From positions 1 to 6,432 of IMG/VR virus record IMGVR_UViG_3300029241_000122: a DNA stretch of 6,432 nt, one strand, 5' to 3'. The translations under genes were made by a program, and so were the position numbers. Under the pieces are notes generated by a model. That model ran no database searches and was not told where the DNA came from. It saw only the letters and a list, made by a program, of their open reading frames with translations. This document shows, one piece after another, positions 1 to 6,432 of the stretch. Numbering within the stretch: position 1 is the stretch's first letter; every line of letters starts with the position of its first letter. The stretch comes from a virus. Its lineage: Duplodnaviria; Heunggongvirae; Uroviricota; Caudoviricetes.

Positions 1-221
1 TGATAGAAACAGAAGCCACTGGAGCACCTCAAAAACACCATCATACACTAAATCAGTAAGTTGGCAGCATCACCAACATAATCTGTCGCGAGTGCCGGAA
101 GAGTGAAGCTATGCAGCGTGTACTGGCTTTCTATCAGGGTAATTTTCAGGAGGCGGTACTGTGAGTGAAATTAGCTATCAGGCTTCAATTACCGCTGGCA
201 TTCGCATCAAAGGAGAGGAGC

Positions 222-1948: not shown

Positions 1949-2109
1949 AGCAGCAAAAGGCGATGTTAATCGCCCTGATCGTCATCTGTTTAACCGTCAT
2001 AGTGANNNNNNNNNNNNNNNNNNNNNNNNNNNNNNNCCTCTGCGAGGTATGAATCCGAACCGGCCAGACGGAGGTCGCTGTCTTCACAGCTTACGAACCT
2101 GAGGAGTAA
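1945..2109 (+). pseudogene. hokD: Hok/Gef family type I toxin gene (HokD/RelF-like), interrupted by a 31-N run and carrying an in-frame TGA at 2050-2052
   Basis: N-terminus MKQQKAMLIALIVICLTVIV matches HokD as recalled. After the N-run the frame reads LCEV-TGA-IRTGQTEVAVFTAYEPEE-TAA, i.e. the conserved Hok C-terminus with TGA where Arg (CGA) is expected. SD AAGGAG lies about 10 nt upstream of the ATG. Confidence 0.65.
2006..2036. other. Run of 31 N (unresolved or masked bases) inside the hok ORF
   Basis: Seen directly in the sequence. If the length is exact, the hok frame is preserved across it. Confidence 0.95.
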
Positions 2110-2550: not shown

Positions 2551-2958
2551 GTGCGGGTATTACTTAGACCTGTTCTGGTGCCTGAGCTTGGGCTGGTGGT
2601 CCTTAAGCCGGGCCGTGAATCCATACAGATATTTCATAATCCTCGAGTGCTGGTGGAGCCGGAACCGAAAAGCATGCGTAATCTGCCGTCCGGGGTTGTT
2701 CCTGCCGTTCGCCAGCCGCTAGTGGAAGACAAAACATTGCTGCCGTTTTTCAGTAACGCACGGGTGATTCGTGCTGCTGGTGGTGCTGGTGCATTGTCTG
2801 ACTGGCTGTTGCGCCATATTAAATCCTGCCAGTGGCCACACGGCGATTATCATCACAGCGAAACCGTCATTCACCGTTATGGTACCGGCGCAATGGTGTT
2901 GTGCTGGCACTGCGACAACCAGCTGCGTGACCAGACAGGCGACCGCAATCATTACTGA
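2551..2958 (+). CDS. Cys/His-rich, zinc-binding-like C-terminal domain protein (CQWPHGDYHH...CWHCDNQ); resembles DUF968-type lambdoid prophage proteins (YdfU/YdaW-like), probably a fragment
   Basis: Starts at GTG 2551; stop TGA 2956-2958 abuts the ATG of the Rz fragment. The family assignment is from memory and unverified. Confidence 0.45.
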   Translation: MRVLLRPVLVPELGLVVLKPGRESIQIFHNPRVLVEPEPKSMRNLPSGVVPAVRQPLVEDKTLLPFFSNARVIRAAGGAGALSDWLLRHIKSCQWPHGDYHHSETVIHRYGTGAMVLCWHCDNQLRDQTGDRNHY

Positions 2959-2959
2959 C

Positions 2960-3265
2960 ATGCAGATACGCCAGCGTGATGTTGCTGCACTCGATGCAAA
3001 ATACCTGAAGGAGTTAGCTGATGCGAAAGCTGAAAATGATGCTCTGCGTGATGATGTTGCCGCTGGTCGTCGTCGGTTGCGCATCAAAGCAGTCTGTCAG
3101 TCAGTGCGTGAAGCCACCGCCACCTCCAGCGTGGATAATGCAGTCTCCCCCAGACTGGCAGACACCGCTGAACGGGATTATTTCACCCTCCGGGAACGAC
3201 TGGTAATGATGCAGGCCCAACTTGAAGGTGCTCAGCAATACATAACCGAACAGTGTTTAAAGTAA
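2960..3265 (+). pseudogene. rzpR: N-terminally truncated Rz i-spanin (lysis gene remnant)
   Basis: Translation ...ITDMQIRQRDVAALDAKYLKELADAKAENDALRDDVAAGRRRLRIKAVCQSVREATA...DYFTLRERLVMMQAQLEGAQQYITEQCLK closely matches the C-terminal two-thirds of lambda Rz. The N-terminal TM segment is missing. The longer track ORF from 2771 is an out-of-frame read of the upstream gene. Confidence 0.75.
3021..3206 (+). CDS. rzoR: Rz1 o-spanin outer-membrane lipoprotein, embedded in the +1 frame of Rz
   Basis: MRKLKMMLCVMMLPLVVVGC with lipobox VVGC, proline-rich PPPPPAW segment, 61 aa, near-identical to lambda Rz1 as recalled. SD AAGGAG lies 7 nt upstream of ATG 3021. Confidence 0.8.
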   Translation: MRKLKMMLCVMMLPLVVVGCASKQSVSQCVKPPPPPAWIMQSPPDWQTPLNGIISPSGNDW

Positions 3266-3402
3266 AATCTTAACTACAATATGATTCATTTTGATGATTG
3301 TTTCATAAGGAACAGTGAAGTAAGATCTAAGAGGAGTTAAATTTTATACAGTATAATCATAATATTGCAGCAAGGTGGTTATAATTGAAAGAATATTTAG
3401 AT

Positions 3403-4860
3403 ATGAATACATCTCATGTAAGAGTTGTTACTCATATGTGTGGGTTCCTGGTTTGGCTCTATAGTCTTTCAATGTTGCCACCAATGGTTGTAGCATTGTT
3501 TTATAAAGAAAAAAGCCTGTTCGTTTTCTTTATAACTTTCGTTATATTTTTTTGCATTGGTGGCGGAGCGTGGTATACAACTAAGAAATCTGGCATTCAA
3601 TTACGTACCCGTGATGGGTTTATTATAATTGTAATGTTTTGGATTTTGTTTTCTGTTATTAGTGCATTCCCTTTATGGATTGACTCAGAACTTAATTTAA
3701 CGTTCATTGATGCTCTGTTTGAAGGGGTTTCTGGAATAACAACAACAGGAGCAACTGTAATTGATGATGTTAGTTCATTACCTCGGGCATATTTGTACTA
3801 TCGGTCACAGTTAAATTTTATAGGTGGTTTAGGAGTTATTGTTCTGGCGGTTGCAGTATTGCCATTATTGGGTATTGGTGGTGCAAAGCTTTATCAGTCA
3901 GAAATGCCGGGGCCATTTAAGGATGACAAACTCACTCCCCGCCTGGCCGATACGTCACGGACACTGTGGATAACTTATTCTTTATTAGGTATTGCTTGTA
4001 TTGTCTGTTATAGACTTGCAGGAATGCCTTTGTTTGATGCTATTTGTCACGGGATTTCCACAGTTTCGCTTGGTGGTTTCTCAACTCATAGCGAGAGTAT
4101 CGGATATTTTAATAACTATTTGGTTGAGCTGGTGGCTGGTGCTTTTTCCCTGCTATCGGCTTTCAACTTTACTCTTTGGTATATTGTTATTAGCAGAAAA
4201 ACGATAAAACCTTTAATCAGAGATATTGAACTTCGTTTCTTTCTGTTAATAGCCTTAGTGGTGATCATTGTTACCTCTTTCCAGGTCTGGCATATAGGTA
4301 TGTATGACTTGCATGGAAGTTTTATTCATTCGTTTTTTCTTGCCAGCTCCATGCTCACTGATAATGGTTTAGCTACGCAAGATTATGCAAACTGGCCCAC
4401 GCACACGATAGTGTTTTTGCTGTTGTCAAGTTTCTTTGGGGGATGTATAGGTTCAACTTGTGGTGGAATTAAGTCACTTCGATTTCTTATACTTTTCAAA
4501 CAAAGCAAACACGAGATAAATCAGCTTTCTCATCCCAGAGCGTTGTTGAGTGTAAATGTAGGAGGGAAGATAGTTACAGATCGTGTAATGAGGTCTGTAT
4601 GGAGTTTCTTTTTTCTTTATACTCTCTTCACGGTGTTTTTTATACTGGTGTTAAATGGTATGGGATATGATTTTCTTACATCATTTGCAACAGTGGCTGC
4701 ATGTATTAATAATATGGGATTAGGTTTTGGGGCTACTGCATCGTCATTCGGAGTGCTTAATGACATTGCAAAATATTTAATGTGCATAGCTATGATTCTT
4801 GGTCGCCTTGAAATTTATCCTGTTATTATATTGTTTTCAGTTTTTTTTTGGCGCTCCTAA
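3403..4860 (+). CDS. trkG: TrkG, Trk-system K+ uptake membrane protein (TrkH/TrkG family), 485 aa
   Basis: Translation from ATG 3403 (MNTSHVRVVTHMCGFLVWLY...) matches E. coli TrkG as recalled and aligns with TrkH motifs (GATxxxxxSLP, EMPGP, GGxGSTxGG). Markedly AT-rich relative to flanks. An upstream TTG at 3385 preceded by AAGGTGG is an alternative start. Confidence 0.9.
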   Translation: MNTSHVRVVTHMCGFLVWLYSLSMLPPMVVALFYKEKSLFVFFITFVIFFCIGGGAWYTTKKSGIQLRTRDGFIIIVMFWILFSVISAFPLWIDSELNLTFIDALFEGVSGITTTGATVIDDVSSLPRAYLYYRSQLNFIGGLGVIVLAVAVLPLLGIGGAKLYQSEMPGPFKDDKLTPRLADTSRTLWITYSLLGIACIVCYRLAGMPLFDAICHGISTVSLGGFSTHSESIGYFNNYLVELVAGAFSLLSAFNFTLWYIVISRKTIKPLIRDIELRFFLLIALVVIIVTSFQVWHIGMYDLHGSFIHSFFLASSMLTDNGLATQDYANWPTHTIVFLLLSSFFGGCIGSTCGGIKSLRFLILFKQSKHEINQLSHPRALLSVNVGGKIVTDRVMRSVWSFFFLYTLFTVFFILVLNGMGYDFLTSFATVAACINNMGLGFGATASSFGVLNDIAKYLMCIAMILGRLEIYPVIILFSVFFWRS

Positions 4861-4943
4861 TATATGGCTGATTTATAATTGTGAGTTTAATATTATATTG
4901 ACTCACTCATTGATCCAATACCTAACTTTACCAGCAACACCTC

Positions 4944-4980
4944 CGCCCCCAGTAGCACTGGCTGCTGGGGTGCGTTTTAT
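4944..4980 (+). terminator. Putative intrinsic terminator downstream of trkG
   Basis: Stem CCCCAGTAGC / GCTGCTGGGG (10 bp with one G-U pair, loop ACTG), extendable by 3 bp with one bulge, followed by TTTTAT. It lies only about 18 nt before the next start codon, so it may be a partial terminator or attenuator. Confidence 0.45.
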
Positions 4981-4997
4981 TCATAAAGCAAGGCTGT

Positions 4998-5786
4998 ATG
5001 AGCGAGAAATTAAAGATAGTCTATCGCCCATTACAAGAATTGTCACCGTATGCGCACAACGCCAGGACGCACAGTACTGAGCAGGTGGCACAACTGGTAG
5101 AAAGTATTAAGCAATTCGGCTGGACTAATCCGGTGCTGATTGACGAAAAGGGCGAAATTATTGCGGGTCACGGTCGTGTTATGGCGGCTGAAATGCTCAA
5201 AATGGATTCTGTTCCGGTCATTGTTCTGTCTGGCCTGACGGATGAGCAGAAAAAGGCGTACCGCTTGGCAGATAATCGCCTACCGATGAATGCTGGCTGG
5301 GATGAAGATCTGTTGCGGATGGAGCTGTCGGTCCTAATCAATGCTGATTTTGATGTCTCCCTGACAGGCTTCGGCCCGACAGAAATTGATGAACTGTTGA
5401 CGGATGTTTTGCCCGGTATAGGAAATAAGGAGGAGCCGTATACGACGAAAATTGATACGCCTGTTTATGAGCCGTCGGGCGGTAAACCGGATATCAGTGA
5501 ACTGTACGACGATACGAAAACTCAGGAGCTGATCAGCCGGATACGTTCGGCGTCCCTTGATCCTGATATTGAGAAATTCCTCCTGTGTGCGGCAGAACGT
5601 CACACGGTGTTTAATTTCAGCAGAATTGCGGACTATTACGCTCATGCCCCCGCTGAAATTCAGTGCCTTTTCGAGGAGTCGGCGCTGGTGATCATTGATT
5701 ATCAGCAGGCTATTGAAAATGGATTTGTCCGAATGACGCAGCGCATGGTGGAGATCATGCATGGCGGGGAGGAGGAATATGCGTGA
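4998..5786 (+). CDS. ParB-like N-terminal domain (ParB/Srx fold, ParB-like nuclease type) protein, 262 aa, with an uncharacterised C-terminal half
   Basis: N-terminal about 95 aa (KIVYRPLQELSPYAHNARTHS...IIAGHGRVMAA...VIVLSGLTDEQKKAYRLADNRL) fits the ParB-like nuclease domain pattern. May correspond to an intact version of the Rac ynaK region (unverified). Its stop overlaps the next gene start. Confidence 0.75.
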   Translation: MSEKLKIVYRPLQELSPYAHNARTHSTEQVAQLVESIKQFGWTNPVLIDEKGEIIAGHGRVMAAEMLKMDSVPVIVLSGLTDEQKKAYRLADNRLPMNAGWDEDLLRMELSVLINADFDVSLTGFGPTEIDELLTDVLPGIGNKEEPYTTKIDTPVYEPSGGKPDISELYDDTKTQELISRIRSASLDPDIEKFLLCAAERHTVFNFSRIADYYAHAPAEIQCLFEESALVIIDYQQAIENGFVRMTQRMVEIMHGGEEEYA

Positions 5787-6381
5787 TGATTTTTGCGCCT
5801 TTATTCTGACTCACGGACGACCGGAAAAAGTTCTGACTTACCGGACGTTGCGTCGTGCTGGCTATACCGGGAAAATTTTTATCGTTGTTGATGATGAAGA
5901 TAAGACACGGCATCAGTACATGGCTGAATTTGGTGAACAGGTGCTGGTATTTTCCAAAGCCGATATCGCCAGTCGTTTTGACGAAGCCGATAATTTTGGT
6001 GACCGCCGCTCAATTTTTTACGCCCGTAATGCCTGTTTCGACCTGGCAAAACTGGTCGGGTGTAAATACTTCATTCAGCTCGATGATGATTATCACGAGT
6101 TCCAGTTTCGGGTGGATCGCAACTATGACCAGGCCTATTTCCCGATAAGGAAACTGGATGCGATCCTTTCTGAAATGCTGGCGTATTACGAATCAATACC
6201 CGCGCTTTCCATCGCTATGTCGCAGGGCGGGGATTTTCTTGGTGACAATGGCGGCCATGCTTCGTGGGTGAAACGCAAGGCAATGAACAGCTTTATCTGT
6301 TCGGTTGATCGACCGTTCTCATTCATGGGGCGCATTAACGAGGATGTGAATACGGGTAATGCTGCCAACTTACTGATTTAG
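5779..6381 (+). CDS. GT-A fold glycosyltransferase-like protein (family-2-like), about 200 aa
   Basis: Motifs CAFILTHGRP...KIFIVVDDED and RRSIFYARNACFDLAKLVGCKYFIQLDDDY fit the GT2 pattern (strand-helix-strand with acidic patch, then ARN...G.Y..LD.DD, the DxD motif). Strong SD GGAGGAGG before ATG 5779, which overlaps the ParB-like stop by 8 nt. An in-frame ATG at 5761 is an alternative start. Confidence 0.6.
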   Translation: MRDDFCAFILTHGRPEKVLTYRTLRRAGYTGKIFIVVDDEDKTRHQYMAEFGEQVLVFSKADIASRFDEADNFGDRRSIFYARNACFDLAKLVGCKYFIQLDDDYHEFQFRVDRNYDQAYFPIRKLDAILSEMLAYYESIPALSIAMSQGGDFLGDNGGHASWVKRKAMNSFICSVDRPFSFMGRINEDVNTGNAANLLI

Positions 6382-6432
6382 TGTATGATGGTGATTTTAA
6401 GGTGCTTGCGTGGCTTCCATTTCCATCAGATG
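6381..6432 (+). CDS. Partial ORF running off the window end (VYDGDFKVLAWLPFPSD...); either a coupled downstream gene or a -1-frame continuation of the glycosyltransferase-like gene
   Basis: GTG 6381 overlaps the TAG stop 6379-6381 by 1 nt. The frame is open from 6360 to the window end. Confidence 0.3.
   Translation, partial: MYDGDFKVLAWLPFPSD

What the first reader, a model, noticed from the sequence alone, without database searches (positions are those of the whole stretch)
4998..6432. Translationally coupled ParB-like protein plus GT-A glycosyltransferase pair downstream of trkG
A ParB-like N-terminal domain protein (DNA-binding, nuclease-type fold) overlaps by 8 nt a protein with clear GT2-type motifs including DxD. 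In phages, ParB-like domains commonly partner DNA-modifying enzymes such as methyltransferases, PAPS-reductase-like proteins, or DpdA in 7-deazaguanine systems. A ParB-like plus glycosyltransferase pairing is not a combination I can match to any known system. It sits at the moron position between the lysis remnant and presumably the packaging genes, where lambdoid prophages carry defence and anti-defence cargo. Hypothesis: a DNA-targeted glycosylation or modification module, or a surface-modifying cargo. The glycosyltransferase-like ORF may also be frame-disrupted at its 3' end.
Basis: partly seen in the sequence, partly recalled or inferred. Interest (0 to 1): 0.75.

Follow-up and report, generated by a model that had tools for sequence, protein, structure and literature searches.

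The report
Phage ParB-partnered glycosyltransferase pair, IS1-truncated
This is a broken copy, cut by an IS1 insertion, of a two-gene phage module found in tailed viruses of bacteria and archaea, in which a ParB-like protein is always paired with a DNA-type sugar-transferring enzyme, yet the phages lack the enzymes that normally prepare DNA for such sugars, so its target is unknown.

Summary
Window 4998-5786 encodes a 262-aa ParB-fold protein (full-length YnaK). It overlaps by 8 nt an ORF starting at 5779 that is a GT-A glycosyltransferase of Pfam PF20691 (TAGT, TET-associated glycosyltransferase; E 7e-30).

This copy is dead. IS1 cuts the glycosyltransferase after codon 192 of 287, and the Rac prophage fragment has lost its late-gene control region.

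The pair is not cargo; trkG is the moron. It is a conserved, translationally overlapping module. All 89 related loci with the glycosyltransferase carry the ParB partner directly upstream. These span E. coli Rac, Lactobacillus, Nocardia and Porphyromonas phages and archaeal virus HHTV-2. The pair usually opens the terminase operon.

The obligate partner is a C-terminal ~110-aa domain plus a Y..P.Y.P motif, not the ParB nucleotide-binding domain. Some phages carry that domain alone, usually inside replication modules. No TET/JBP or thymidylate-synthase homologue was found in any neighbourhood or complete genome checked.

Best reading: a ParB-assisted DNA glycosyltransferase that modifies progeny DNA, acceptor unknown. 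Main rival: the enzyme glycosylates its partner's conserved tyrosine motif. I class it as a new variant of a known kind, with moderately high interest at family level.

The parts
4998..5786 (+). Full-length YnaK-type partner protein (262 aa): ParB-CTPase-fold NBD + linker motif + conserved C-terminal domain
   Evidence: ORF. Pfam ParB_N; phrog_620 E 3e-88. AF2 model: NBD confident, linker disordered, CTD helical. Foldseek best matches are Noc and ParB-CDP structures.
4998..5405 (+). ParB/Srx nucleotide-binding domain (residues 1-136) with invariant N21 and the G57-H-G-R60 P-motif; no HTH DNA-binding domain follows
   Evidence: Alignment A2; model; Foldseek. Residues 3-140 match the N-terminus of phage ParB-methyltransferase fusions, phrog_498, E 4e-50.
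5439..5474 (+). Conserved linear motif Y148-T-T-K-I-D-T-P-V-Y-E-P159 (Y..K...P.Y.P) inside the AF2-disordered linker (residues 137-167)
   Evidence: Y148, K151, P155, Y157 and P159 are invariant in 53 orthologues. The Y..P.Y.P core (Y148, P155, Y157) is kept in Lactobacillus, Nocardia, Vibrio and archaeal virus partners; the fourth position is P except for one I in each diverse alignment.
5499..5783 (+). C-terminal domain (residues 168-262), the universally conserved partner domain of this glycosyltransferase clade
   Evidence: phmmer finds 1187 cluster representatives, with the domain always at the C-terminus. It occurs alone in Vibrio phage pv27, in L083 and in 33 of 80 IMG/VR loci. In 78 of 80 CTD loci it is directly followed by the glycosyltransferase.
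5768..5786 (+). Translational-coupling junction: Shine-Dalgarno GGAGGAGGA (5768-5776), ATG 5779, partner stop TGA 5784-5786
   Evidence: Sequence. Overlaps of 4-29 nt are conserved in c5, HHTV-2, NTR1, Porphyromonas phage and metagenome loci.
5779..6354 (+). N-terminal 192 codons of the TAGT-family GT-A glycosyltransferase (intact length 287 aa); DxD at 6082-6090
   Evidence: Pfam PF20691 E 7e-30. Intact copy is L001 12919-13782. AF2 pLDDT 80.9 with GT-A Foldseek matches. Invariant residues are listed. The lost C-terminal part holds invariant TQ...GGMT..Y..GTY.KSFY...HH.
6355..6432 (.). IS1 terminal sequence that truncates the glycosyltransferase
   Evidence: Identity to intact Rac ends at 6354. 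Annotated as an IS1-family transposase element in matching genomes. The same junction is present in E. coli LR-24.
1..74 (.). IS1 end on the other side of the Rac fragment
   Evidence: blastn of the window against L010 IS1 copies, 99-100% identity.
3385..4860 (+). trkG, a low-GC moron inserted between Rz and the pair (not part of the module)
   Evidence: Pfam TrkH E 1.5e-143. GC 0.33-0.41 against ~0.49 for the pair.
4947..4970 (+). Terminator-like hairpin after trkG, 28 nt before the partner start codon
   Evidence: 10-pair stem with 7 GC pairs and a T-rich tail.

Best explanation
The window holds an inactivated copy of a conserved two-gene phage module. Gene 1 encodes an acidic protein made of three parts: a ParB-type NTP-binding domain, a disordered linker with an invariant Y..P.Y.P motif, and a helical C-terminal domain (CTD). 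Gene 2, translationally coupled to it, encodes a GT-A glycosyltransferase of the TAGT family. That family includes the T2/T6 enzyme that adds a second glucose to glucosyl-hydroxymethylcytosine; Pyle/Saleh report structural similarity of phage GT-A DNA glycosyltransferases to the trypanosome base-J glucosyltransferase.

Most likely mechanism, in intact phages. The two proteins are made together late in infection, from the first genes of the terminase operon; in some phages they are made with the replication genes instead. The CTD and motif dock and activate the glycosyltransferase. The ParB domain, where present, acts as an NTP-gated clamp or adaptor that holds the enzyme on phage DNA. Progeny DNA is then glycosylated before packaging, which would protect it from host nucleases at the next infection.

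Shown: the family assignments, the obligate pairing, the conserved catalytic motifs, the genomic positions, and the absence of hydroxymethyl-base enzymes in every neighbourhood and genome checked. Inferred: complex formation, DNA as the target, and the protective role. The acceptor atom is unknown. Because no TET/JBP or thymidylate-synthase homologue accompanies the pair, it would have to be something other than the usual hydroxymethyl-pyrimidine.

In this window the enzyme is truncated by IS1 and the late-control genes are deleted, so nothing functional remains except an intact partner ORF.
For: Family assignments:
- Glycosyltransferase: PF20691 and phrog_842. PF20691 includes the T2/T6 beta-glucosyl-HMC-alpha-glucosyltransferase.
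- AF2 model pLDDT 80.9 with GT-A matches.
- DxD and about 60 other residues are invariant in 65 homologues, and motifs are kept in partners down to 27% identity.
- Partner: ParB-CTPase fold without an HTH. Its NBD is closest to the NBD of phage ParB-DNA-methyltransferase fusions (phrog_498, E 4e-50).
- Parallels with ParB activators of thymine dioxygenases. It has the same NBD / unstructured linker / CTD layout.

Obligate pairing:
- 89 of 89 TAGT loci in 26 clusters have the partner.
- 78 of 80 CTD-seeded loci have the glycosyltransferase immediately downstream. In the other two, only a sugar-nucleotide-type enzyme intervenes.
- ParB partner and TAGT are the only families shared by all 29 representative loci.
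- The pair is present in Rac, L. delbrueckii c5, L. gasseri phi jlb1, Nocardia NTR1, a Porphyromonas phage and archaeal HHTV-2.

Context:
- It is the first element of the packaging operon with three terminase types.
- CTD-only pairs lie among DnaB, DnaA-like, helicase, nuclease and DNA methyltransferase genes.
- The glycosyltransferase is mostly basic (median pI 8.8).
- A histidine phosphatase plus cytidylyltransferase-like enzyme is fused to the partner or inserted in the pair in some lineages. This fits a scaffolded glycosylation pathway.
- Precedent: ParB is required for phage thymine dioxygenase activity. Burke 2021 cites the Aravind group's proposal that ParB directs DNA-modification machinery during packaging.
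Against: - No enzyme that makes a hydroxymethyl or hydroxy base is linked to the pair. Checked: ten loci with precomputed or tested Pfam annotation, the complete genomes of c5 (31.8 kb) and HHTV-2, and complete Rac. Canonical DNA offers no hydroxyl acceptor, and no GT-A enzyme is known to glycosylate an unmodified base.
- The partner is strongly acidic everywhere (median pI 4.6, net charge -20) and has no DNA-binding domain, so DNA binding would rest on the enzyme.
- The ParB domain is dispensable in many lineages (33 of 80 in a biased sample). A clamp mechanism therefore cannot be the core of the system.
- One TAGT-family member, GREB1, glycosylates a protein.
- Pyle/Saleh judged glycosyltransferase contigs without 5mYOX or ThyS 'less likely' to be DNA-hypermodifying.
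- No modified nucleoside has been reported for any phage carrying the pair, as far as the held literature shows.
- Complex formation was not modelled.
Confidence: 0.45

Rival explanations
1. Self-contained enzyme-substrate pair. The glycosyltransferase O-glycosylates its own partner on the invariant tyrosines (or a neighbouring Thr/Ser) of the disordered Y..P.Y.P motif, and the helical CTD serves as the docking element. The glycosylated acidic protein then does the real job, for example as a packaged or injected anti-defence factor or a regulator of packaging or replication.
For: - It explains why no acceptor-making enzyme is needed: the acceptor is encoded next door.
- The motif lies in a disordered segment next to a conserved helical domain and keeps Y148, P155 and Y157 from E. 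coli to archaeal viruses.
- The CTD plus motif, not the ParB domain, is the universal partner.
- TAGT relative GREB1 O-GlcNAcylates a protein.
- The top Foldseek PDB matches are the peptide glycosyltransferases SunS and ThuS, and glycogenin (Tyr self-glucosylation) also appears.
- The T4-type TAGT, which acts on glucosyl-hmC DNA, has no such partner.
Against: - The Foldseek margins over other GT-A enzymes are small (E about 1e-4, TM about 0.4).
- It does not explain why a substrate would be fused to a ParB NTPase domain homologous to that of DNA methyltransferase fusions. Nor does it explain the fusion to a donor-synthesis enzyme.
- The replication, methyltransferase and terminase contexts point to DNA.
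- The hydroxyl residue after Y148 is not invariant (Ala or Glu in some members).
Confidence: 0.22
2. Packaging accessory. The ParB-like protein marks or recognises the phage chromosome (cos/pac region) for the terminase, and the glycosyltransferase-like protein has a structural or regulatory role rather than a modifying one.
For: - The pair sits immediately upstream of terS/terL in most lineages and right after cos in phage c5.
- In Nocardia phage NTR1 the large terminase follows directly, with no small-subunit gene between.
- The idea of ParB acting during packaging exists in the literature.
Against: - The pair moves between three unrelated terminase systems that each keep their own small subunit.
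- CTD-only pairs sit in replication modules far from terminase.
- The DxD and other catalytic-type residues are invariant.
- Donor-synthesis genes join the module in some lineages.
Confidence: 0.1
3. The enzyme acts on hydroxymethylated or glucosylated DNA made by something else. This could be invading T-even-type phages (a prophage exclusion function) or a hydroxylase encoded far away or too divergent to recognise.
For: - Known DNA-acting TAGT enzymes use hydroxymethyl-pyrimidine or glucosyl-hmC acceptors.
- Pyle/Saleh raise prophage glycosyltransferases hypermodifying invading genomes as a possibility.
- The Pfam census shows only the commonest families, so single divergent hydroxylases could be missed.
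Against: - Late-operon position, and presence in virulent or lytic-type phages and an archaeal virus whose hosts have no hmC phages known to me.
- The complete 31.8-kb c5 genome and Rac have no candidate.
- The CTD has only one invariant histidine, so it is unlikely to be a hidden oxygenase.
Confidence: 0.08
4. Lysogenic-conversion or surface-glycan cargo: a polysaccharide, O-antigen or teichoic-acid glycosyltransferase carried as a moron.
For: GT-A fold matches in the PDB include polysaccharide and cell-wall enzymes. The pair lies next to the trkG moron in Rac.
Against: - No flippase, GtrA/GtrB-type or other membrane partner is seen in any locus.
- The same pair (27-43% identity) occurs in Gram-negative, Gram-positive, actinobacterial, Bacteroidota and haloarchaeal viruses with unrelated envelopes.
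- GC content matches the phage, not the moron.
- It is always coupled to a ParB/CTD partner.
Confidence: 0.03

Closest known systems
ParB-dependent phage thymine dioxygenases (5mYOX Clade E/C1 plus cognate ParB; O'Toole et al., bioRxiv 2025 / PNAS 2026)
   Same: A phage ParB-fold protein lacking the HTH DNA-binding domain (NBD, 30-50-aa unstructured linker, CTD) is encoded next to a post-replicative DNA-modifying enzyme and is needed for that enzyme's activity. The N-for-Q52 and H/D-for-E93 substitutions appear to be shared (by motif position). These systems are often near glycosyltransferases and terminases.
   Different: Here the partner enzyme is a glycosyltransferase, not a dioxygenase, and no dioxygenase is present. 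The conserved partner element is the CTD plus Y..P.Y.P motif, which also exists without any ParB domain. Dependence of the enzyme on the partner is inferred, not shown.
T2/T6 beta-glucosyl-HMC-alpha-glucosyltransferase and other TAGT (PF20691) DNA glycosyltransferases
   Same: Same Pfam and PHROG family, GT-A fold and DxD motif; phage-encoded.
   Different: The T-even-type homologues share only 23-26% identity and have no CTD or ParB partner. They act on hmC made by a dCMP hydroxymethylase pathway, which is absent here.
Phage ParB-DNA methyltransferase fusions (phrog_498; ParB-CTPase fold fused to N6_N4 methyltransferase)
   Same: Closely related ParB NBD (E 4e-50 over residues 3-140). From my own knowledge, not checked here, these genes often occupy the same late position just upstream of terminase. 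They fit the general logic of a ParB domain joined to a DNA-modifying enzyme.
   Different: The enzyme is a separate, translationally coupled glycosyltransferase docked (by inference) through a dedicated CTD, rather than a fused methyltransferase.
Trypanosome base-J glucosyltransferase (JGT) and animal GREB1
   Same: JGT shares the GT-A fold and glucosylates 5hmU in DNA; its TAGT membership rests on my recollection of Iyer et al. 2013, not on a paper read here. GREB1 is named in NCBI's annotation of this protein ('GREB1-related') and O-GlcNAcylates a protein.
   Different: Very distant in sequence. JGT depends on the JBP hydroxylases. Neither has a CTD-type partner.
Glycocin S/O-glycosyltransferases SunS and ThuS with their peptide substrates
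   Same: Best structural matches in the PDB. They show the logic of an enzyme plus an adjacent gene product with a helical docking part and a flexible acceptor loop.
   Different: Similarity is at generic GT-A level (E about 1e-4, 10-13% identity). There is no leader-peptide or bacteriocin context.

Membership tests
TAGT, TET-associated glycosyltransferase (Pfam PF20691; GT-A) | Profile match above the curated threshold | tested here: met
   104.9 bits against a cut-off of 27.5 even for the truncated ORF. Intact homologue matches phrog_842 at E 2e-102.
TAGT, TET-associated glycosyltransferase (Pfam PF20691; GT-A) | GT-A fold with DxD metal / nucleotide-sugar motif | tested here: met
   AF2 pLDDT 80.9, pTM 0.79; Foldseek matches are GT-A enzymes. 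DDD 102-104 is invariant.
TAGT, TET-associated glycosyltransferase (Pfam PF20691; GT-A) | Genomic association with a TET/JBP dioxygenase or a hydroxymethyl-pyrimidine pathway | tested here: not met
   No TET_JBP or thymidylate-synthase family in +-10 kb of 8 precomputed loci, in Rac, c5 or HHTV-2, or among 244 neighbouring ORFs scanned. Only the 25 commonest families per scan were visible.
TAGT, TET-associated glycosyltransferase (Pfam PF20691; GT-A) | Glycosyl transfer to a DNA base derivative | not testable with these tools
   Needs enzymology or nucleoside LC-MS.
ParB-CTPase fold (ParB/Srx, PF02195) | Profile match and fold | tested here: met
   29.3 bits against a cut-off of 26.3. Foldseek matches Noc and ParB-CDP structures, E 1e-5.
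ParB-CTPase fold (ParB/Srx, PF02195) | Box II / P-motif GxxR arginine needed for NTP binding | tested here: met
   G57-H-G-R60 is invariant in 53 orthologues. GxxR is kept in all divergent partners that have an NBD.
ParB-CTPase fold (ParB/Srx, PF02195) | NTP (CTP) binding and hydrolysis | not testable with these tools
   The published survey found that nucleotide specificity cannot be predicted from sequence.
Canonical partition ParB (ParABS) | HTH DNA-binding domain, ParA partner, parS site | tested here: not met
   No HTH in the model: the NBD is followed by a disordered linker and a small helical CTD. TIGR00180 scores 38 bits against a cut-off of 58. No ParA gene in any locus.
ParB-dependent 5mYOX (thymine dioxygenase) system | Cognate 5mYOX/TET-JBP gene adjacent to the ParB gene | tested here: not met
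   The adjacent gene is always the glycosyltransferase. No TET_JBP was found.
ParB-dependent 5mYOX (thymine dioxygenase) system | ParB architecture of NBD + unstructured 30-50 aa + CTD, without a DNA-binding domain | tested here: met
   One search compared with the published description.
   None in any neighbourhood. trkG is an unrelated K+ transporter found only in Rac.
IS1 insertion sequence (element truncating the ORF) | Terminal sequence matching annotated IS1 copies, with abrupt loss of homology to the uninterrupted locus | tested here: met
   Breakpoint at 6354/6355. A second IS1 end lies at 1-74.

The most novel reading that the evidence does not exclude
The CTD-partner plus TAGT pair is a self-sufficient glycosylation system that needs no hydroxymethyl-pyrimidine precursor. 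There are two possible forms. (a) It is the first enzyme system that attaches a sugar post-replicatively to a canonical DNA component, as a widespread and so far unseen DNA modification of temperate phages of bacteria and archaea, including about one in six complete E. coli genomes. (b) It is a phage protein-glycosylation switch on a conserved tyrosine motif of a ParB-like protein.
Probability: 0.3. Interest if true: 0.85.

Novelty: new variant of a known kind. Interest (0 to 1): 0.6.

Why it matters
If the pair glycosylates DNA without a hydroxymethyl precursor, it would add a new chemistry to phage DNA modification. It would also mean many ordinary temperate phages carry a modification that routine sequencing has not reported. 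These include Rac-type prophages, present in 914 of 5426 complete E. coli genomes, dairy Lactobacillus phages and haloarchaeal viruses.

That would bear on restriction evasion, phage therapy, dairy phage control and enzyme tools for DNA labelling. If the target is instead the partner protein, it would be a new kind of phage protein glycosylation linked to a ParB NTPase.

Either way, the work defines a testable minimal module (CTD + motif + glycosyltransferase). It also extends the recent finding that ParB-fold proteins are cofactors of DNA-modifying enzymes. The specific copy in this window is only a relic.

Tried and rejected
1. CTD as the missing hydroxylase. Rejected: only one invariant histidine (H202), and E200, H216 and E240 are not conserved, so there is no 2-His-1-carboxylate or di-iron pattern.
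2. A third conserved gene. All-against-all clustering of ORFs in 29 representative loci found only the partner and the glycosyltransferase in all loci. The next families are terminases of separate types. The ~180-aa 'Minor_tail_Z (faint)' neighbour is restricted to the lambda-GpA group.
3. Natural partner-glycosyltransferase fusions, to support a complex. None among 170+ loci or the top 150 CTD representatives. Long CTD proteins are ParB with N- or C-terminal extensions. The one 560-aa fusion is to a His-phosphatase/cytidylyltransferase, not to the glycosyltransferase.
4. Pfam, PDB sequence and NCBIfam searches of the CTD. These gave only recurrent sub-threshold hits to PF23887 Phage_Gene47 (E 0.005-0.05) and noise in the PDB.
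5. Literature. Iyer et al. 2013 (the original TAGT paper) is not held. No supplement text was held to obtain 5mYOX, ParB or GT sequences for direct comparison. Searches for ynaK, HHTV-2 and ParB + DNA glycosylation gave nothing on this pair.
7. The whole genome of Vibrio phage pv27 was not screened for hydroxymethylase genes. I judged it not decisive.
8. Checked the alternative upstream ATG at 5761 for ORF2. Homologue alignments support the start at 5779 (MRDDF...).
Full report
**What is in the window**

The window is a fragment of the E. coli/Shigella Rac prophage. It is 100% identical to Rac of E. coli TUM9803 over 75-2005, 2037-2937 and 2936-6354.

Three things damage it:
- IS1 ends bracket it at 1-74 and 6355-6432.
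- A 5.6-kb internal deletion at about 2936 joins a DUF968 gene remnant to the 3' part of Rz. It removes the antiterminator Q, holin and lysozyme.
- A run of N at 2007-2036 masks part of a hok-type toxin ORF.

The remaining order is Rz/Rz1 remnant, trkG (3385-4860; GC 0.33-0.41, a moron with a terminator-like hairpin at 4947-4970), then the two ORFs of the finding.

**Observation check**

ORF1 (4998-5786) encodes 262 aa.
- ORF1 matches Pfam ParB_N (29.3 bits against 26.3) and phrog_620 (E 3e-88).
- ORF2 matches Pfam PF20691, the TET-associated glycosyltransferase family, at E 6.9e-30. NCBI names it 'GREB1-related protein'.

The ORF is cut by IS1 after codon 192. The intact protein has 287 aa (L001 12919-13782). 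The lost third contains invariant motifs (TQ..GGMT..Y..GTY.KSFY...HH). The same IS1 junction exists in E. coli LR-24.

**The proteins**

The AF2 model of the glycosyltransferase is good (pLDDT 80.9, pTM 0.79). It matches only GT-A enzymes in the PDB, at modest scores: SunS, ThuS, SpsA, GpgS, COLGALT1 and glycogenin, with E about 1e-4. DDD 102-104 and about 60 other positions are invariant in 65 homologues of 59-94% identity.

The partner model has three regions:
- a confident ParB nucleotide-binding domain (residues 1-135);
- a disordered linker (137-167);
- a low-confidence helical C-terminal domain.

Its best PDB matches are Noc, ParB-CDP, KorB and PadC. There is no HTH DNA-binding domain. 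N21 and G57-H-G-R60 are invariant. Residues 3-140 match the N-terminal domain of phage ParB-DNA methyltransferase fusions at E 4e-50.

**Synteny**

In intact Rac the order is trkG, partner, glycosyltransferase, an 83-aa terS-like HTH protein, terS, terL, portal. The same overlapping pair sits directly upstream of terS/terL in several settings:
- metagenomic phages with HK97-type or lambda GpA-type terminases;
- right after cos in L. delbrueckii phage c5, as ORF1/ORF2 of a 31.8-kb genome;
- L. gasseri phi jlb1, Nocardia phage NTR1, a Porphyromonas gingivalis phage at 27.5% identity, and the haloarchaeal virus HHTV-2 at 42.5% identity.

With my own HMMs, 89 of 89 glycosyltransferase-bearing loci (26 clusters at 85% identity) have the partner ending at the glycosyltransferase start. 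Among 29 representative loci these two are the only gene families present in all. About 914 of 5426 complete E. coli genomes carry at least 80% of the region.

**The real partner is the C-terminal domain**

Alignment of distant partners shows that two elements are better conserved than the ParB domain:
- the linker motif Y-[TS]-x-K-[IV]-x-x-P-x-Y-E-P;
- the helical CTD (FL..AA.RH.VF.F..IADYYAH....Q.LME.SALVIID...AIE.GF).

In Vibrio phage pv27 (191 kb) the gene before the glycosyltransferase encodes only motif + CTD (139 aa). That pair lies between primase/exonuclease and helicase genes. L083 is likewise CTD-only.

phmmer with the window's CTD against 1.84 billion representatives finds 1187 clusters. 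The domain is always C-terminal and sometimes stands alone.

A CTD-seeded scan of IMG/VR gave 80 loci:
- 78 have the glycosyltransferase immediately downstream.
- 33 are CTD-only and 43 are ParB-fused.
- The other two (L164, L166; one lineage) carry a histidine-phosphatase + cytidylyltransferase-like enzyme. In L166 it lies between CTD and glycosyltransferase; in L164 it is fused to the partner.

A cytidylyltransferase-like gene also follows the glycosyltransferase in L084. One locus has two tandem glycosyltransferases (L093). The T4-like Aeh1 homologue has no partner nearby.

**What is missing**

Known DNA-acting TAGT enzymes need hydroxymethyl-pyrimidine or glucosyl-hmC acceptors. I found no TET/JBP or thymidylate-synthase homologue in any of the following:
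- +-10 kb of eight loci with precomputed Pfam annotation;
- the annotations of complete Rac, c5 and HHTV-2;
- the unassigned ORFs of c5 and Rac;
- the commonest families among 244 neighbouring ORFs.

One caveat applies. Those two census scans show only the top 25 families, so isolated divergent hydroxylases cannot be excluded.

Neighbours of CTD-only pairs are DnaB, DnaA-like, AAA_25, PD-(D/E)XK, SNF2/ResIII, ERF and N6/N4 DNA methyltransferases.

**Literature**

Several papers bear on the pair:
- ParB-like proteins are required activators of a subclass of phage thymine dioxygenases. They share the NBD-linker-CTD layout without a DNA-binding domain.
- A survey of phage glycosyltransferases lists ParB and terminase among neighbours. 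It set aside the 65% of contigs without 5mYOX or ThyS as less obviously DNA-modifying.
- A ParB-CTPase-fold survey describes phage fusions to methyltransferases but mentions neither glycosyltransferases nor terminases.
- Burke et al. cite the Aravind group's idea that ParB directs modification machinery during packaging.

I found no paper that characterises this pair. The original TAGT paper (Iyer et al. 2013) is not held, so I cannot say whether it already drew this neighbourhood.

**Interpretation**

The best-supported reading is a partner-dependent DNA glycosyltransferase. It would be made late, or with the replication genes, and would modify progeny DNA. The CTD and motif would be the docking and activating element. 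The ParB domain would be an optional NTP-gated DNA clamp or adaptor.

The weak point is the acceptor. Three facts also count against a simple clamp model:
- the partner is very acidic (median pI 4.6);
- the enzyme is mostly basic (median pI 8.8);
- the ParB domain is dispensable in many lineages.

The main rival is that the enzyme glycosylates the partner's invariant tyrosine motif. That would explain the self-sufficiency of the two-gene unit. It fits the DNA-centred contexts less well, and likewise the fusion to ParB and to donor-synthesis domains. Roles limited to packaging, action on foreign hydroxymethylated DNA, and surface-glycan conversion are less likely, for the reasons given under the rivals.

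**Verdict**

- Observation: confirmed.
The enzyme class, the synteny and a DNA-directed function are right; the 'moron cargo' and 'no known precedent' claims are wrong; and this copy is inactivated.
- Novelty: a new variant of a known kind. It is a ParB-partnered phage DNA-modification enzyme and a TAGT family member, but it is an orphan of any hydroxylase and is defined by a previously undescribed partner domain.
- Interest: 0.6.

Noticed in passing
window 1-74 and 6355-6432; junction near 2936: The Rac fragment is bracketed by IS1 ends on both sides. It also carries a 5.6-kb internal deletion relative to intact Rac (L001 4491 to 10076) that removes part of the DUF968 gene, Q, holin, lysozyme and the 5' part of Rz.
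   Followed up: yes
window 2007-2036 (ORF about 1945-2110, + strand): A run of 30 N lies inside a Hok/Gef-type toxin ORF (MKQQKAMLIALIVICLTVIV...EVAVFTAYEPEE). It looks like deliberate masking rather than an assembly gap.
   Followed up: partly
L164 3614-5296; L166 1419-2387; L084 4296-4745: In some lineages a histidine-phosphatase + cytidylyltransferase-like (PF00300 + PF01467) enzyme joins the module. It is fused to the C-terminus of the ParB-CTD protein (L164), placed between partner and glycosyltransferase (L166), or present as a cytidylyltransferase-like gene right after the glycosyltransferase (L084). This suggests a dedicated activated-sugar donor.
   Followed up: partly
L093 9136-9996 and 10001-10861: Two tandem glycosyltransferase paralogues follow one ParB-CTD gene in a lambda-like prophage. 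This hints at stepwise addition of two sugars.
   Followed up: no
L096 (Nocardia phage NTR1) 3-3408: ParB-CTD (Orf1), glycosyltransferase (Orf2) and the large terminase (Orf3) are contiguous, with no small-terminase gene between them.
   Followed up: no
L003 17837-20316 (also L004): Four consecutive GT2-family glycosyltransferase genes lie just after the major capsid gene of a phage that also has the ParB-TAGT pair. This may be a virion-glycosylation cluster.
   Followed up: no
window 4998-5255 (equivalent to the 87-aa K-12 ynaK remnant): A 2026 overexpression screen in E. coli MG1655 reported that ynaK raised the MICs of six antibiotics (PMC12924614). From my recollection, consistent with the 86-codon pseudogene annotated in L010, the K-12 gene is only the N-terminal part of this ParB domain. 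No mechanism is known.
   Followed up: partly
L001 6640-8190 (intact Rac of E. coli TUM9803, between Q and the lysis genes): Two ORFs of 346 and 169 aa have no Pfam match and sit at a classic moron or defence position. They are absent from the window because of the deletion.
   Followed up: partly
window 5430-5783; L094 5459-5875; L083 7601-8002; P0287: The partner CTD gives recurrent sub-threshold matches (E 0.005-0.05) to the same region of Pfam PF23887 (mycobacteriophage L5 gene 47-like). This may be a remote relationship.
   Followed up: no
L010 (E. coli LR-24) 7001-9250: The identical IS1-glycosyltransferase junction occurs in a degraded prophage next to the bio operon (the lambda attachment region). 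There ynaK is also annotated as a pseudogene, so the truncated allele is shared between strains.
   Followed up: partly
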